Shown here: piece after piece, positions 36,766 through 53,945 of the stretch
Numbering within the stretch: position 1 is the first letter of the stretch
Layout of the letters: the number at the start of each line of letters is the position of its first letter
From: Protoeuglena noctilucae
Taxonomy: Eukaryota
Direction of reading: 5' to 3'
Length of the DNA: 64,000 nt
NCBI GenBank assembly: GCA_958009085.1
Contig: OY253671.1
Location: forward strand, 496,001-560,000
Notes under the pieces: model-generated
Databases searched by the model: none
What the model was told of the DNA's origin: nothing
Seen by the model: only the letters and a program-made list of their open reading frames with translations
Translations under genes and position numbers: made by a program

Positions 36766-37285
36766 CGCGCGTCCCTCTAGGAAAACGGCCCTGACAAGGG
36801 AAAGCCCGTGCTTGGAGCTGGGGCCGCAAGGCCTTTGGGAGGCCCAAAAGCCTGCAGAGCGGGCCGGACGATACACGTGACCGCGATGAGCGCTGGGTGG
36901 CTGAACAGGAGCTGCTGAGAAGTCAGGCGCAGTTTTTGGTCAGCATAGGCCACGTATTGGATATGCGGGCTCCCAGACGCGCGCCTCTGGCAAACTTTTG
37001 TCAGGATGCGCCGATGCCACGAACTCGCTTCGCACGGCGCGGATCAGCCTAGCACACAATTGCCCCCGCCGACGCTCCCGCCGCGTTCTCTTGGCTAGCA
37101 TCGTTTACTGGGCGGCAAGCGCACAGCGCCCGCGCCCGCCGCTGTCGGTTCTCTGGCCCAGCAGCGGCCGCCCCCATCGAGGCCTGCACGGCCCAAACTC
37201 GGCTCGCACACTTGCTTCAATCGAACCTTGCACTCAGTACGACCAAAATTAGCACCCTGGTCCGGTTCAGGGCTTTTCGCGCGGG

Positions 37286-40200
37286 ATGAGCGCAGTGACC
37301 TCGTGTCCGATGTGTGCGCGGCAAGCGCCCGCCGCGAGCTCGTCGGGGGCGGCGGGTACGCTCGGCATGCGGACGCAAACTGGTATCGCCGCGAACCGGG
37401 GAGGCAGAACCATTGCCCGCGCACAGGTGGGAGCTGACCGCACTCGTGAGTAGTGGATGGCGGTGTGTGCGCCTCGAGGCGCTCCAAGCATCCATCTCAT
37501 TCCTCACAGACCCGGCCGAGGCCATCCGTGCCCTCGCTGCCCACGGGCATCATCCGGGACGTGCGGGAGCTGGGCCCCTTAGGGCTGGACACGAGTTTTG
37601 ACGAGGGCGACTTCCGCCTTCGCGACGTGAAGAACACCTCCTACGTTTCCCGTCGGCGGATGGACGACGCGGACTTCAACCCCGACGAGGTCGACGTCGA
37701 TGGACTCCCGCTGGTGTACAACGAGGCCCGGGTGTCGCAGTACTGGGGGCAGCGCCCGGGAGAGCTCGCCAAGCGATGGGCCAACTTCGTGGGCATCTCG
37801 GCCCCCTGGCTCACGAGCCTGGCCAACGCCTTCATCCAGGGCCGCATCGGCGACGAGGCCACGCAGCGCGCCCTGGCCCGCGATGCTGTGGTGAACCTGG
37901 AGAAGCTCGGGCCCACCTTCATCAAGCTCGGGCAGGTGGGCGGGGGTCGTGGGCGTCGCTCTGCGCCAGGCCGGTGCTCCTGGGCCCATGAATGGGATTG
38001 CTCACTCGGTGCATGGAGCCTCCCTCCTCTCATGCGCTGTAACAAGTGCCACGATTGGTGCTCAGCGGCCCATTTCTGATCCTCCCGCAGATCCTGTCTA
38101 TCCGCCCTGACGTCCTCCCTCCGGCCGTCATGTCCGAGCTGGGCAGCCTGCAGGACCGCATCCGCCCTTTCGACACCAAGGAGGCGCGGCGCATGGTCGA
38201 GGAGGAGCTGGGGCGGCCGCCGGAGGACGTGTTCAGTGAGTTCAGCGAGGAGCCCGTGGCGGCAGCATCTCTCGCCCAGATGAGTGGGTGCGCGGGGTGT
38301 ATGAGGTGGCAAGGTTCTTTGGGTGCAGGCGAGGTGTCTAGGAGTGCTGGCGTGGTGCGTGGGGTGCAGGCGAGGTGCCTGCAGTGCCGCCAAGTACAGT
38401 TGGACATGCCGCAATGCATTTCACACCCTGCAGGTCTATCGCGCCCGGGTGCGTGAGACGGGGCAGCTGGTCGCAGTGAAGGTGCAGCGTCCGGGGGCGC
38501 TCGCGACCATCTCCAAGGACCTGTACGTCATGCGGAGGGCCGTGGGTGTTTACGAGAAGATTATGCGGCGCTTCACGGCTCAGACGACCGGTGAGGTCCA
38601 TGGTCGCGGTCCCATCCACGACCGCTGCTCGGGTCGACCGTGCTGCCGGGCGAACGTCACGGGTCGCGCTGTGCTCGCAGACTACCAGGAGCTTCTGAGT
38701 ACGTACGCGGAGGGGCTGTACACGGAAATGGATTTCAGAAACGAGGCGCTCAACGCGGTCCGGATGCGCGAGCTCCTGGCCTCTTCCGACATCACGCAAG
38801 TCGACGGCGTGGTCGTCCCGCAGCCGCTGCTGGACCTGACGACGCGGCGCGTGCTGACGATGGAGTGGGTCACGGGCGTCAAGCTCACGACGCTGCCGCC
38901 CGAGGAGATTCGTGCTCTGTGCCGCGTCGGGCAAGAGGCCTTCCTCGTGCAGCTCCTGGAGATCGGGTTCTTCCACGGCGACCCGCACCCGGGCAACCTG
39001 CTGAAGATCACCGAGGGCCCCGATGCCGGCAAGCTCGCCGTGCTCGACTGGGGCTTGGTTGCCGAGATCCCAAGCCCGGACCGCGAGGCCATGGTTCGCG
39101 CCACCATCCACCTGGCGAACCGCGACTGGGCCGCCCTCGTCGACGACTTCGTGGCTCTGGGGTTCCTTCCCTCGGACGCGGATCGCCGCCTCATCATCCC
39201 CGTCATGGACCGCGTTCTGTCGCCCTACCTCCGCGGGGGTGGCGCACGGGCCTTCAGCTTCCAGATGCTCAGCCAGGATCTTCTGGCAGCCACGCTCGAG
39301 ATCCCGTTTAGGTGACGCGCCGTGACCAACGCAGCTGGCCTCTGCCACACACGCTTGCGTGCTTGCCTCAGAGGGTTGCGACGAGCATAAGCGCCGCCGT
39401 TGGTATCACTCTCAATGAGTCGCTCCTGCATCCGCACCCGCAGCGTGCCCCCGTACATGTCCCTCCTGGCGCGCTCGGTGGCGACCCTCGAGGGCATCGC
39501 TTTGGCCGGGGACCCCAACTACCAAATGGTCGCGCAGGCCTTCCCCTTCGTCGTGCGCAAGGTCCTCCGCAACGACTCGAGGGGCACTGCCCTCGTGCTT
39601 CGGGAAATCCTCTATGACGCGGACGGCAAGATGCGGCCCGCGCGCCTGTCCTCCCTCCTCAACGCAGCCCTCGGGTGGGTGCCGGGTCGGCCAGGCAGGG
39701 CCGAGCACGCGGGGGCGAGGACTGCAAGGGAGCCGGGCGCGCAAGCTAGTCGTGGCTGGCACACAACCGGCCCCCTTGTGGACCGCAGTTTCGTGGCGGA
39801 CCGCACCGACGGCTTCGTGGACTTTGACGCCGTGCCAGACGACGGCGCGTCGACGCCTGAGATCGTGGCCTTCCTCCTGAGCGCGGACGCCGAGCGGCTG
39901 CGGCCCTGGCTGGTCGGGGAGCTCGTGGCGGGCATCGACCTCTACGCCCGCGACCGCGGCCGCAAGTCCCTGGCGCAGTTAGAGGCGGTCCTGACCCCTC
40001 GCCTGCCCTTCCTGGGCGCCCTGCCCGCCCCGCCGCCCCCGCCCCTCTTCGTCCCCGGCCTGGGCCTCGTGCCTCCCCGCGATCTGGTGGAAAAGCTGCT
40101 CCCGCCACTCTCGCCCGAGGACCAGGTTTACCTCGAGTCCCTCATCGGCCTGGCAGCGACGGTGCTCGGGGTGGCACCCGCGGACCTCGACTCCCCCGGG

Positions 40201-40743
40201 CTGGACCGCACACTCGCAGTGCTGCTCAACCCCACCCAGCAGCAGCGGGAGGTCCAGGACGTCCTGGCGCGGCTTGCGGCGGGAGAGGATGGCGCGGAGG
40301 TCGCGCAGGACATCGCAGAGCAGGTGAGCTGTCACTCAGCTTGGTCAGCGCTGAGCTGGGGGGGTTCGTTGGGCTGGGGTGCAGCACCGGTGGGGGCATC
40401 TGCCGGCACGTTGCACATCGCCGGGGCGTGGGCCAAACTGTGATTTCCCGGCGGACGCGGAGTGCTTCTTTGTTGCGCGCAGGTGATGGACACGCTCGTG
40501 ACCATCACTGCCGAGCGCGCGGGCGTGCCTGTGTCTACGCTCTTCCCGTGGTACGAGGGCTTGCGCGATGTGGCGCGGGAGCAGGTCACGACCATCCGCT
40601 CCTACGCCCGGACCGTGCGAGTCCCAGCTTCCGCTCCCGGCGGCGCATCCACGCCGGCGACTTCGGTGGGCGCGCAGCGACCTTCGGAAGAGGTCAGGGT
40701 CCCGGGGCCCGAGCTGGTGGCGGCCTTTTTCCCACGGTCATGA
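37286..40743 (+). CDS. ABC1/UbiB-family atypical kinase (ABC1K), plastid-targeted
   Basis: LEKLGPTFIKLGQ|ILSIRPD, PVAAASLAQ|VYRA, VAVKVQRP, EMDFRNEALN, VLTMEWVTG, GFFHGDPHPGNLL and LDWGLV. Transit-peptide-like first exon at 37286. Confidence 0.93.
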
Positions 40744-40828
40744 CAGCGGGTCGCGGTGTGTTTTCAGTCCCTAAAACCGCGTTCAACAGCACTTGAACAT
40801 GGGCAACGCTCACACAACAACAGGCCGG

Positions 40829-41390
40829 TCACTTGTCGCCCTCCAGCTCCGCCACCCTCGCTTCCAGCTCCTCGATCCTCTTCTGCGCGGGAGGGGCACG
40901 CTCTCATCGGTCTCCAGCGCGATGCATGGGCGACAATGGGCGACACCTGGGTTGCTTTGCAGCGTGAGCGGTGTACACAGAGGCAAGGGACGCGCAGCAC
41001 TGCTGTGCTACACGAGTTCGCCATGCACAGAGGCTGCGCCTCGCCTGCGCCTCCTCGAGTTGCTTGCTGAGGTCTTCCTTCTCCGCCTGCATGGCCGCCA
41101 TGTCCTCGGGCGTGGGCGCCCCCAGCTGCGTCTTGAGGAAATCCACCGCCTTTTGGGGTTTCGCCTCGCTCTCGTAAAGAGCCACCAGCGCCTGCGGGCG
41201 GCGAGCCGCGGTGGAATGCTGGTGAGTGATGACACTCCATGGGCGCCACTGCACCAACGTCACCATATGATAGCCCATCTTCTGCGACCCGCTCAGCGCT
41301 CGCGCGGCCGTCCGTCACCTTCGTCATGGCATCAATGACCCCGGACGTCTCCAGATACTTCCGGAACGTCTCCTTCTTCTCCGTCGACAT
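40829..41390 (-). CDS. MYCBP: c-Myc-binding protein (MYCBP/AMY-1, Chlamydomonas FAP174-like)
   Basis: MSTEKKETFRKYLETSGVIDAMTK|ALVALYESEAKPQKAVDFLKTQLG...EEAQ|KRIEELEARVAELEGDK*. Confidence 0.9.
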
Positions 41391-42008
41391 GGCCACGCTC
41401 GATGCGCGTCCCCACGGCTGCCCGTGCCCCTTCCTGCCCCGTCCCCAGGCCCAGTGCTCTGCAGTCATGCGCAGGAGTGCCACATGGACGCGGGTGTCCC
41501 GAAAAAGTGGCGCGGAGGCCACGAAAGTGGCCGGCTGTTTCTGGGAGCGCTGCGTGGCCATTCCCGCGACAACAGGGCCCGGGCCACGCCGGCAAAGTGC
41601 CATCGCCGGTTCTCGACAAGACGGAGGTACGCATGGCGCAAGGGCTGGGCGCGCCAGATGCGCCTGGCAAATGCATGCGTTCACGAAACATGCCGAGGGT
41701 CTGCACATGCCCCGCAGCCCCGGGGTCGGTGCCAAGTCGATGGTCCGGCTCTGTAACCCAAGGACCGCAAAGTTCGCTATTTGCGCCCGAAGCTAGCCGC
41801 GTCCGCACCTCTCCGTCTCGCGTCCAGCGACTGATGTGAACTGCAAACGCCCAAGGATGCTTGCACCCACACAGCACGCGTGCGTGGCGTCAGAATCGTC
41901 TGCAGAATACCCGACGGCCGCAGGCAGGCCGTCTCCGTGGCTTTTCCTCCGAAAACTCTTTCTGACCAGTCAGACGGGCTCATCGGGACTGAACTACCCC
42001 CTGCCGCG

Positions 42009-42031
42009 CTCCCTTCCGGTCCTTTCCGTTT
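42009..42031 (+). promoter_or_regulatory. Pyrimidine tract just upstream of the RPL36 ATG (possible TOP/TCT-like initiator)
   Basis: ctcccttccggtcctttccgttt lies 16-38 nt before ATG 42047. Such tracts are typical of ribosomal-protein transcript starts, but the TSS is not known. Confidence 0.35.
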
Positions 42032-42046
42032 GATGTGTTGGGCGAA

Positions 42047-43135
42047 ATGACCGCGACGGTTGAGGGGTTGGCCGTGGGCCTGAACAAGGGCCGGGTGGGG
42101 AAGGAGAAGGGGCCCCAGCGCGCGTCCCATGCCAACAGCCGGGTGAGGCGGCTCCTCTGCACCTAAGGACACGCGGGAGGGGACCTGCATCGGGGCGCGG
42201 CGCCCAGCGGGTCCCTTCCGCGCAGCCGAGTTGCCGGACGGCGCCCTCCCCCCGCGCCGCGTCGGGATGCGCTCCCCCGCTAACAGTTCGGCGGTGGGGG
42301 TTTCCGTCTTGGCTTCGGCCACCCTCCGGGAGCTCCCACGCCGCGAACGGGCTTGGTCGGGCTCGCCCACCTCGTCCCCGCGGGGCTGCCGCATCTCTCC
42401 GCTGTAACTTGTCGCCTCGACTGTCGTCGGGGCGTGCTGCCGGTCGGCGCTGCCTCTGGCCACGCGGGCAAGGGTTCCGGCGTTCCTGCTCCTCGGCTGG
42501 GGGAGCTGGGAGCCTGCCTTGCCTCCTCGTCGTTATGGTTGCCGCCTGTGTCGCGGCGGACGGCCCGGGAGCTCGCAGCGCTTCTGCCCGGGGACCTGCG
42601 CCGCGGTGCGGCCGCCCATCCTCTTCTCGTGCCCCCTCTGCACCCAGAGGATCTCCACGCGGACCAAGTTCGTGCGGAGCCTGATTCGGGAGGTCTGCGG
42701 CATGGCGCCGTACGAGAAGCGCATCAGTGAGCTTCTGAAGGTGCGCGCCGCGGGCAGCCAGGGGTTGCCGCGCGACCGGCGTGGCGGGCGGCGTTCCGTC
42801 GCTGTCCGGCGTCGCTGTCCTGCACCGTGGCCTCGTCGCTGGCATCGTGGGCGCGGCGGATTGGCCAGAGCCGCGCCGCGCTGCCGTCGTGTGTTTTTCC
42901 TCTGGCCTCTGAGCCGTAGGCCATCTCTCAGCCGATGAGGATTCGGTCATTGACGTGGGTGTCTCCACCGCCGCAGGTGGGCAAGGACAAGCGCGCGCTC
43001 AAGATGGCGAAGCGCAAGCTGGGGACGCACCGTCGCGCCAAGGCCAAGCGTGAGGAGATCTCGAACCTCATGCGCAAGGCCGCCCAGAAGAAGAAGCAGG
43101 AGGAGAAGGAGAGCCACGCGCACGGCCACAAGTAG
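42047..43135 (+). CDS. RPL36: 60S ribosomal protein L36 (eL36), 3 exons (42047-42142, 42648-42740, 42977-43135)
   Basis: [62 protein letters not shown]. Confidence 0.96.
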
Positions 43136-43808
43136 TCGCGCGGTTGTGCCTGGGGTGTGAGCGAAGCGGAGGAGCTGCGAGGCGACGAGGAGCTGCCCCT
43201 GGCCGCCACGCGGCGTGCAGCGCGGGCGTCCTACCTGTGGCGCCGGTGGTTCCGACCCGCCTAGCGTCTTGAACGCGCATGTCTGCGAGGTGCCAGAAAC
43301 AGAGGTGTTGGGGGCGACATGCGAGGCAGCGCTCCTCGGCAACCGGTCAGTCAAGACGCATCTCACGTAGCCCCAGTCGTTTCCCCCCGACATCCTGACC
43401 GGCGAGGCCGGAAGACGTAACAGCGTGCGACGCGGGGCCGATTGAGGGGAGCTGCGGGGTTCTGAAGAACGAACATCACAAGCCTGCTCGGCGGGAGGGA
43501 GGGGGAGGAGCTTTTGGGAACGCTCGGACGCCAGGCGTGGCCACGCGGCGTCGCGATGGCACCCGTTGGCGTTTGAGGGGCCCGAAGCCCAGGTGGGTTT
43601 CCAAAGTAACCGAGCGGCGAAGCGGGTTGCCGTCGGCGGGCCCGTCCTTTGGCTGGTGTCCGGGGCATTTGTCCGGGGCGCCGGCAAGCGCTACCCGGCA
43701 TCCCGAGGGCGGTTTCAGCCTCTGCTTGGGGAGCTTTATGACTTACGGGCACCTCCCCGGCCCCCGCGCGTCGCAGGAGGGCGGCCCCTTCCCGGGCGCA
43801 CGCGGGAA

Positions 43809-52792: not shown

Positions 52793-53945
52793 ATGGGCCT
52801 CGTCATCTCGACCTTTCTGCGCCTGTTGTCGCCGAACAAGGACTACAAGGTCGCCATCATCGGCCTCGACAACGCAGGGAAGACCACGATCCTCTATCGC
52901 ATGAAGTTGGGGAAGGCGAGCGACAGGGGGCACACTTATCGCGCCCCTTGCGCTTCCCTCCTCGCGCGGCTTCATCGGCGACGCAGAGACGGGATGAAAA
53001 TCCAATGAAATGGTTTTGCTTGTGTGAAGTCGCGCGCAAACGCGCCGGGCTTGGGGGTGAACCCAGGTCGTGCAAACCCACCCGACCATTGGCACCAACG
53101 TGGAGACCGTCAAGCATGGACGACTAGTCTTCAACTGTTGGGATCTAGGTGAGCCCTGCGAAGTCGCCACCAGGCACTCCACGCCCCGCAGGCACTCCAC
53201 GCCCCGGCACTCCACGCCCCGCACTCCACGCCCCCCGCTTCGCGCCTCTCATCAAATCCCCTCTCAGTCGCCGGGGAGAATTCTTTGTTGAACAATTCAG
53301 ACGCCCCCTCACATGAAATCGGCCCACCAGCTTGTCGTCTGCCCACGTCGCAGGTGGTCAGGGTCAGTTCCGGGAGATGTGGAGGCATTACTTCGGCGGC
53401 ACGGATGCGGTCATTATGGTGGTGGATTCGACGGACCGGGAGAGGCGAGGGCGACAAATGCTGGCCGCTTCTCTGCGCTTGTGGTGCCGACTCTTAACAA
53501 GAGTAACCTCAGCTCTGCATCGCAGGGTGCAGCTAGCGCGGCAGGAGCTCCACCGGGCCCTCGACACGGACGTGTTGCAGGGTGCGCATCTCTTGTTGCT
53601 CGCCAACAAGCAGGACCTGCGGGATGCGATGGGGCCTGGGCAGCTGAGCACTGAGCTTGCCCTCACGGACATCCGGGGGCGCCAGTGGCGAATCCAGGGG
53701 TCCAGCGCCGTCACGGGGGAGGGGCTGAAGGAGGGGCTCGACTGGCTGGCGCAGGTGAGCGGCAGGCGGCCCGCTCCTTCACCTCTTCCACGCACTCGTG
53801 CCAACGCGCTTGCGCCAGGGCAGTGCCAGCGACCCCCGAGCGATCGCACTCGCGTTGCTGTTATGGCCCGCAGCAGCTGGGAGAGGAGAGTGCGGACGGG
53901 GCAGCACCTTCGTACCAGCAGGTGGACACGGGCGACGGCGATTAG
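52793..53945 (+). CDS. ARF-like small GTPase (ARL5/ARFC-like)
   Basis: N-terminal MG, GLDNAGKTT, PTIGTNVE, WDLG|GQ, VVDSTDRER, LANKQDL and SSAVTGEGLKEGLDWL. Confidence 0.93.
53172..53236. repeat. Intronic tandem repeat (gcactccacgcccc, 4 copies) in ARF-like intron 2
   Basis: ggcactccacgccccgca-ggcactccacgcccc-ggcactccacgcccc-gcactccacgcccccc read directly. Confidence 0.85.

What the first reader, a model, noticed from the sequence alone, without database searches (positions are those of the whole stretch)
38280..38433. Apparent AT-AG intron inside the conserved ABC1-kinase motif AAASLAQ|VYRA
Seen in the sequence: the exon ends ...CTC GCC CAG, followed by atgagtgggtg...caccctgcag and then GTC TAT CGC. 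The 154-nt spacer changes frame, so splicing is needed. The only junction that restores the family motif exactly uses AG|ATGAGT, a perfect U2-type donor except for A at +1. It does not match the U12 ATATCCTT consensus. In-phase alternatives exist (GT at 38334, GC at 38370) but would insert 18 or 30 residues into the ATP-binding N-lobe strand. Together with the GC donors this hints at a permissive spliceosome. A sequencing error or a mutant allele is also possible.
Basis: partly seen in the sequence, partly recalled or inferred. Interest (0 to 1): 0.7.

Follow-up and report, generated by a model that had tools for sequence, protein, structure and literature searches.

The report
Real AT-AG intron in green alga
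A marine green alga correctly removes an intron that begins with AT instead of the near-universal GT from a conserved kinase gene, apparently with its ordinary splicing machine, which offers a natural case for studying how strictly that machine checks the first letter of an intron.

Summary
Confirmed. Intron 3 (38280-38433, 154 nt, CAG|ATGAGT...CTGCAG|GTC) of an ABC1 kinase gene is removed in RNA contigs of 3 of 3 RNA runs (2 studies); no joint at 38334 or 38370 is listed. A DNA contig from the same sample as one RNA run has A at 38280. The joint fits four registers; AT-AG is the only one that keeps a normal acceptor. The intron is old: 17 of 26 homologous loci covering the site carry a GT-AG intron there, none AT, so A+1 is derived. 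No U11, U12 or U6atac hit, no ADAR-like gene; U1 and U6 are canonical, and all seven flanking donor bases can pair with U1. Best reading: major-spliceosome intron with a G+1-to-A change, compensated by full U1 pairing. Context: about 18% of predicted introns use GC donors, and a second gene has an AT-AC intron with the same CAG|ATGAGT donor (120 of 120 homologs align without gaps). A+1 donors stay rare: 2 of 125 best-matching sites, none extra in 460 kb of unselected sequence. U2-type AT donors are known in human, mostly as minor sites. Splicing efficiency was not measurable.

The parts
37286..40743 (+). ABC1 atypical kinase gene, 8 coding exons (37286-37426, 37510-37935, 38091-38279, 38434-38590, 38681-39311, 39444-39674, 39789-40323, 40483-40743), 856 aa
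   Evidence: All 7 introns seen as joints in X7 and X8; open frame; PF03109 hits at 38148-38279 and 38431-39141; P0001 identical from aa 54 but for aa 548. Start codon inferred.
38091..38279 (+). Exon 3, ending ...EPVAAASLAQ (CTC GCC CAG)
38280..38433 (+). Intron 3, 154 nt, phase 0, AT...AG ends
   Evidence: Skipped in X7, X8, X13; present in DNA run X5; same position holds a GT-AG intron in 17 homologous loci
38277..38287 (+). 5' splice site CAG|ATGAGTGG; all positions from -3 to +6 can pair with this genome's U1 except +1
   Evidence: scored as if GT it outranks the predicted GT donors of 460 kb (9.7)
38420..38434 (+). Ordinary 3' splice site ...CACCCTGCAG|G matching the genome's YGCAG consensus; branch point not identified
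38434..38590 (+). Exon 4, starting VYRARVRETGQLVAVKVQRP
38334..38377 (+). Unused in-frame cryptic donors (GT 38334, GT 38355, GC 38370 and others)
   Evidence: Listed, scored (1.5, 5.5, 6.6 against 9.7); no joint at them

Best explanation
An old, ordinary major-spliceosome (U2-type) intron whose first base changed from G to A in this alga's lineage and which is still removed at the correct place. Shown: the 154 nt are removed and the reading frame is restored; the DNA has A; homologous genes have GT-AG here. Inferred: U1 selects the site because the other seven positions from -3 to +6 can all pair with it; U6 then reads the intact GAG at +3 to +5; branching occurs to A+1; and exon ligation goes ahead although the usual G(+1)-G(-1) pair is replaced by A(+1)-G(-1). 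The change could persist because this genome's spliceosome already accepts many GC donors and because the nearby GT and GC sites are weaker.
For: Joint in 3 of 3 RNA runs laid, 2 studies, inside single 3.2-3.3 kb contigs in X7 and X8; contig depth over the intron equals the exon-only expectation in X8 and X13. X5 (DNA) and X7 (RNA) are one sample and share the 39542 allele, so one genotype has A+1 and the spliced product. 109 of 120 homologs read the motif as ..Q-V[YHF] with nothing between (regex); 0 of 114 aligned ones have an insertion there. 17 of 26 non-duplicate homologous loci covering the site have a GT-AG intron at it (14 clusters), 9 have none (8 clusters), 0 have AT. Two paralogs in this genome have an intron at the same site, one GC and one GT. 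U1 5' end and U6 ACAGAGA are canonical; no U6atac, U12 or U11 match at E<=1. Full 7-of-7 flank pairing is seen in only 23 of 726 predicted GT and 17 of 158 GC donors. A second A+1 donor with the same nonamer ends in AC. Human reporter data show AT donors used by U1 when the rest is complementary (PMC6280755, passages).
Against: Contigs cannot give splicing efficiency and drop minor forms, so retained or mis-spliced RNA may be hidden. The register is not fixed by RNA alone (four fit). X5 is flagged by the tool as a possible source of the window's DNA. The snRNA searches score only the best 40-48 candidates, and U1 itself scored below its cut-off, so divergent minor snRNAs could be missed. No branch point was located. 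Structural and genetic work says A+1 is normally rescued by C-1, not G-1 (10.1101/212811 passages; PMC1557818 section 20), so the second step should be poor; what overcomes this was not found.
Confidence: 0.86

Rival explanations
1. Same chemistry, but a leaky, mildly harmful allele: A+1 is spliced poorly, retained or stalled products are destroyed, and only the correct mRNA survives to be assembled. This can coexist with the best explanation; it disputes only that splicing is efficient.
For: G+1 to A normally impairs ligation unless the last base is C (PMC1557818 section 20). Retention shifts the frame to a stop, a likely decay substrate (own knowledge). A+1 donors are very rare genome-wide. 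Contigs drop rare variants.
Against: The allele is in the window and in a wild 2016 sample; the gene is single-copy at DNA level and otherwise intact; one continuous full-length contig at depth 35-38 in two runs.
Confidence: 0.3
2. A+1 is edited to inosine before splicing, so the spliceosome sees a G-like base, as reported for three human AT-AG introns.
For: Known route in human (PMC4176328, passages and Discussion).
Against: One PF02137 match in the genome; its model starts directly with the deaminase domain, as a tRNA deaminase would, with no room for RNA-binding domains (my reading). A+1 lies in a hairpin loop, not a duplex, and the region folds no better than shuffles (z -1.22). The sibling intron ends in AC, which suits an unedited A.
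Confidence: 0.03
3. A minor-spliceosome (U12-type) AT-AG intron.
For: All 20 AT-AG introns in a five-species survey are U12-type (PMC1557818, Table 2 passage).
Against: No ATATCC donor or CCTTRAC-like branch motif (motifs recalled); no U11, U12, U6atac match; homologous introns are ordinary GT-AG; Chlamydomonas has no U12 introns (PMC2846911 section 11).
Confidence: 0.02
4. The cut is in another register (GA..CA, AG..GC or CA..TG), or the joint is a reverse-transcriptase jump across the CAG repeat.
For: The 3-nt repeat makes four registers equivalent; template switching favours direct repeats (PMC4176328 Discussion).
Against: The others break both ends; the AT..AG register keeps the YGCAG acceptor and matches the homologous GT-AG introns; the joint is the assembled form in three libraries of two studies and restores an invariant motif. 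No chain of GT/GC-only cuts can give this joint (reasoned from the sequence).
Confidence: 0.04
5. Sequencing or assembly error, or a G allele that supplies the spliced RNA.
Against: X5 differs from the window at 39542 and is one contig of depth 9 with A at 38280; its RNA partner X7 carries the same 39542 allele.
Confidence: 0.04

Closest known systems
U2-type non-canonical AT 5' splice sites in human (PMC6280755; PMC4176328)
   Same: AT donor with AG acceptor, otherwise high U1 complementarity, no ATATCC motif.
   Different: Human cases are described as mostly weakly used, near a stronger canonical site, enhancer-dependent, or A-to-I edited. Here it is the only assembled form of a frame-critical junction in a conserved kinase, in an organism with no detectable ADAR or minor spliceosome.
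U2-type AT-AC (class II) introns, e.g. SCN4A/SCN5A (PMC1557818)
   Same: A+1 with a U2-type donor; rare (0.003% of introns in that survey). The sibling intron at G000:C2:1417190-1417315 belongs here; 7 'other AT-AC' introns are tabulated for Chlamydomonas (PMC2846911).
   Different: Intron 3 lacks the compensating C at the last position.
U12-type AT-AG introns (ACTR10, NUP210, XPO4; PMC1557818)
   Same: Same terminal dinucleotides; ACTR10 too is AT-AG in some species and GT-AG in others.
   Different: Those carry U12 donor and branch signals and need U11/U12/U6atac; none found here.
GC-donor-rich genomes, e.g. Emiliania huxleyi with about 55% GC donors (PMC7779022, passage)
   Same: High share of GC-AG introns.
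   Different: About 18% here, in a green alga; land-plant average is 1.2% (10.1101/428318, abstract and passages) and Chlamydomonas about 2%.

Membership tests
U2-type spliceosomal intron | Removed from mRNA at a defined junction | tested here: met
   three RNA runs; P0001
U2-type spliceosomal intron | 5' site complementary to U1 5' end | tested here: met
   7 of 7 flanking positions plus +2 pair; +1 does not
U2-type spliceosomal intron | GT or GC at +1/+2 | tested here: not met
   AT in window and in X5; this is the exception described
U2-type spliceosomal intron | YAG acceptor matching the genome consensus | tested here: met
   CCCTGCAG against YGCAG matrix
U2-type spliceosomal intron | Branch-point adenosine and lariat | not testable with these tools
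   No YTRAY in intron 3, but only 15% of predicted introns have one in their last 40 nt
U2-type spliceosomal intron | Dependence on U1/U2/U6 snRNPs | not testable with these tools
   U1 and U6 present and canonical; dependence needs an experiment
U12-type AT-AG intron | RTATCCTT donor | tested here: not met
   ATGAGTGG
U12-type AT-AG intron | CCTTRAC-like branch site (motif recalled) | tested here: not met
U12-type AT-AG intron | U11, U12, U6atac in the genome | tested here: not met
   0 matches at E<=1; only 40-45 top candidates scored each; U4atac not searched
A-to-I edited AT-AG intron | ADAR with dsRNA-binding domains | tested here: not met
   single deaminase gene of tRNA-deaminase layout
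A-to-I edited AT-AG intron | G read at +1 in unspliced RNA | not testable with these tools
   no RNA contig covers the intron
Introner / transposon-derived intron | Multiple similar copies and recent insertion | tested here: not met
   only self in own genome; position shared with 17 homologous loci
ABC1 atypical kinase (PF03109) | PF03109 domain continuous across the junction | tested here: met
   profile positions 2-45 end at 38279 and 45-241 start at 38431

The most novel reading that the evidence does not exclude
This alga's major spliceosome has lineage-specific relaxed checking of the first two intron bases: it accepts GC in about a fifth of introns and ligates A(+1)-G(-1) introns efficiently without editing, because of changes in Prp8 (seen here at positions where human, Chlamydomonas-like and nematode chains agree: T1783S, I1566L, F1577M, S1524T, A1836S in human numbering) or in a proofreading factor. 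It would be a green-lineage model of how the G(+1)-G(-1) checkpoint can be loosened.
Probability: 0.2. Interest if true: 0.75.

Novelty: new variant of a known kind. Interest (0 to 1): 0.5.

Why it matters
G at +1 is treated as invariant for the major spliceosome because it pairs with the intron's last G during exon ligation; A+1 is expected to need C at the end. This is a natural, frame-critical A+1/G-1 intron in an organism where the minor spliceosome and ADAR editing, the two usual explanations, were not found, with a matched AT-AC control carrying the same donor in the same genome. The pair gives a ready test of what lets the second step tolerate A+1, and bears on why some G+1-to-A variants still splice. 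It also warns that standard annotation breaks such genes. It is still one rare intron of a broadly known kind, not a new system.

Tried and rejected
Cryptic GT/GC donors (38334, 38355, 38370 and 12 more): no RNA joint. A chain of canonical cuts giving the same joint: impossible from the sequence. Intron as a repeated element: only a self match; no meaningful match to homologous introns (best E 0.48). Enrichment of MAGATRAGT over its reversed control (149 against 124) and of CAGATGAGT (80 against 26) is not evidence for donors: most sites lie in introns, between genes or just after acceptors. L016 (CAG|ATAAGT, gain 4.8) sits in a low-complexity region where my model seems to fuse two genes; unverified, not counted. 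GA, GG and CT candidates with gains of 5-8 were inspected in five cases (window about 10739/10808 minus, L168, L274, L146, L030) and looked like model errors; the L185 cluster is low-complexity and was not inspected. A loose AT..AC pattern gave 863 matches; the first 30 loci held no new A+1 intron. My first U1-pairing count was off by one base and was redone. Three motif hits (L227, two in L262) were non-homologous and dropped. Runs X15-X24 held none of the words and X14 few; not used. Earlier findings of the scan: none returned. A paper search on Prp8 T1783/T1855 found nothing.

Full report
Setting. The window is G000:C4:496001-560000 of a 26.3-Mb, 27-contig genome, about 67% G+C, found in marine metagenomes. 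The best named relatives of the gene are all Chlorophyta, so I treat it as a green alga; I did not place it further.

Observation. Eight exons give an open frame of 856 aa; the other six introns are GT-AG. The ABC1 profile covers positions 2-45 up to 38279 and 45-241 from 38431. Of 120 homologs, 114 cover the site in the alignment and none has an insertion between Q and V; 109 match the motif regex with nothing between, 11 do not match it.

RNA and DNA. I laid 4 of the 14 holding runs on 36900-43300. All three RNA runs (X7, X8 of one study, X13 of another) join 38276 to 38431, skipping 154 nt, with three letters of slack. No joint at 38334, 38370 or any other place in the intron is listed. Depth in the two bins over the intron equals the exon-only expectation in X8 and X13, and in X7 exceeds it by 0.8 in one bin, where a 21-nt piece of another gene is laid. 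Of the 12 joints in the stretch, 10 are GT-AG, 1 is GC-AG and 1 is this one. DNA run X5 covers the stretch in one contig of depth 9 and differs only at 39542, so it reads A at 38280. X7 is the same sample as X5 and shares the 39542 allele, so one genotype has both A+1 and the spliced product. P0001, from a 3.3-kb contig, equals the model from aa 54 on except at that allele; it may stem from the same samples and is not independent. All four runs are contigs: they show the main form, not its share.

Register. CAG ends both exon 3 and the intron, so CA..TG, AG..GC, GA..CA and AT..AG give the same mRNA. Only AT..AG keeps the genome's YGCAG acceptor and changes one base only. Any route needs one non-canonical 5' cut, since the four possible start dinucleotides cannot be turned into GT or GC by a prior canonical cut (reasoned).

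History. A metagenome scan gave 68 loci. Leaving out duplicates, three non-homologous motif hits, 28 loci that do not cover the site and 2 that show the acceptor side only, 26 remain: 17 have a GT-AG intron of 108-589 nt at exactly this Q|V site, 9 have none, none has AT; these form 14 and 8 clusters. One or two may be paralogs, and none is a close relative (best exon identity 76%). Two paralogs in the own genome have an intron at the same site, one with GC and one with GT. The intron is therefore old and of the ordinary type, and A+1 is most simply a derived G-to-A change; its date is unknown.

Machinery. U1 begins ATACTTACCTG and U6 has ACAGAGA. U6atac, U12 and U11 gave no match at E<=1, with the limit that only 40-45 candidates were scored each and U1 itself fell under its cut-off. 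Chlamydomonas has no U12 introns or snRNAs (PMC2846911, section 11 read); the green algae with minor introns named in PMC10639083 (passages) are Chara and Klebsormidium. The only PF02137 gene looks like a tRNA deaminase, and A+1 lies in a hairpin loop. The donor can pair with U1 at all seven flanking positions from -3 to +6; 23 of 726 predicted GT and 17 of 158 GC donors do so, and CAG|GTGAGT is 5 of 726. Prp8 keeps the glutamine that reads the -3 base (human Q1522, taken as yeast Q1594 by offset) and the alpha-finger and beta-hairpin sequences, with a few changes at otherwise shared positions (three of 15 exons compared, top alignments only). These are leads, untested.

How common is A+1? I wrote and self-trained a gene model; it is my own tool, checked only against the 12 RNA joints (9 predicted exactly, one GC joint off by one base, one with a wrong donor, one UTR joint missed; intron 3 cannot be predicted). 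In 460 kb of blocks it scored 712 GT and 156 GC donors; 531 and 114 gained more than 5 nats. Among added sites scored as if GT, 1 of 1477 AT (this one, 5.5), 0 of 3057 CT, 0 of 897 TT, 0 of 4423 GG and 2 of 3108 GA passed 5. A second, partly overlapping set of 187 loci gave 641 GT and 159 GC, with more GG/GA/CT noise above 5, so a gain of 5.5 alone would not have proved this intron and weak AT-AG introns can be missed. A rough ceiling is 0.5% of introns. The GC share of 18-20% stands far above the controls and is supported by one RNA joint, by GC donors in Prp8 (2 of 14) and by the paralog at the conserved site. Of 149 MAGATRAGT sites in the genome I examined 125, including all 80 CAGATGAGT. 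Two are donors: this one and L020. A third (L016) is doubtful.

The sibling. At G000:C2:1417190-1417315 (+), in a HEAT-repeat gene, CAG|ATGAGT opens a 126-nt phase-2 intron ending CCCGCAC|G. The model gain is 25.6 nats, 120 of 120 homologs align without gaps across it, and the only open canonical alternative nearby removes 29 residues including a conserved motif. No other AT, CT or TT pairing with AC, AA or AT passed 8 in the blocks and 98 loci. It has no RNA check. It was found by searching for this motif, so the shared nonamer is not independent evidence of compensation.

Mechanism. Shown: removal, frame, DNA base, conserved position. Inferred: strong U1 pairing picks the site over weaker GT and GC sites (scores 9.7 against at most 6.6); the major spliceosome branches to A+1; ligation proceeds with A(+1)-G(-1). 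In the yeast P complex G(+1) pairs with G(-1), and A/C ends are said to be tolerated (10.1101/212811, passages); G-to-A at +1 is rescued by C at the end, less efficiently (PMC1557818, section 20 read). The A/G combination is thus the unexplained step, and a leaky allele masked by RNA decay remains open.

What is known. AT-AG introns in the five-species survey are all U12-type (PMC1557818, passages). U1-dependent AT donors work in human reporters, ranked GC > TT > AT, and appear mostly at weakly used junctions (PMC6280755, passages and section 7); some human AT-AG sites are edited, others are not (PMC4176328, passages and Discussion). Searches for AT-AG introns in algae returned nothing direct; the one algal mention is a weak U12 candidate in a diatom. 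The library lacks most subscription papers, and I opened no supplements; species tables in plant-wide surveys could list such introns.

Verdict. A real, derived U2-type AT-AG intron, a rare variant of a known kind, made more interesting by the lack of the two usual escapes, by the AT-AC sibling and by the high GC-donor share. Interest 0.5.

Noticed in passing
L020:1500-1625 (G000:C2:1417190-1417315, +): U2-type AT-AC intron, 126 nt, phase 2, same CAG|ATGAGT donor, in a conserved HEAT-repeat gene; 120 of 120 homologs ungapped across it; no RNA check.
   Followed up: partly
genome-wide sample (460 kb of blocks and 187 loci); e.g. window 40883-41045 minus: GC donors make up about 18-20% of predicted introns, mostly AG|GCGAG; far above Chlamydomonas (about 2%).
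   Followed up: partly
window 39542: The window has T (Phe548) where wild runs X5, X7, X8 have A (Tyr) and 114 of 114 aligned homologs have Tyr; a strain variant or an error in the assembly.
   Followed up: partly
L150/L168 (G000:C20, about 371220) and L171 (G000:C2, about 1305880): Two ABC1 paralogs have an intron at the same Q|V site, with GC and GT donors: three donor types at one homologous position in one genome.
   Followed up: partly
L199:306-2720 (G000:C14:434096-444969, Prp8): Prp8 differs at positions shared by the top PDB chains, such as T1783S, I1566L, F1577M, S1524T, Q1816H, A1836S (human numbering); meaning unknown.
   Followed up: partly
window 40479-40882: The kinase mRNA and the convergent minus-strand gene overlap at their 3' ends and assemble into one RNA contig.
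   Followed up: no
L016:1500 (G000:C2:270638, +): CAG|ATAAGT at the end of a coding-like stretch, weak AT-AG candidate (gain 4.8); unverified.
   Followed up: partly
window 53150-53240: An intron of an ARF-like GTPase gene holds several short imperfect repeats (GCACTCCACGCCCC); the same gene seems to have two GC donors (about 52917 and 53446).
   Followed up: no
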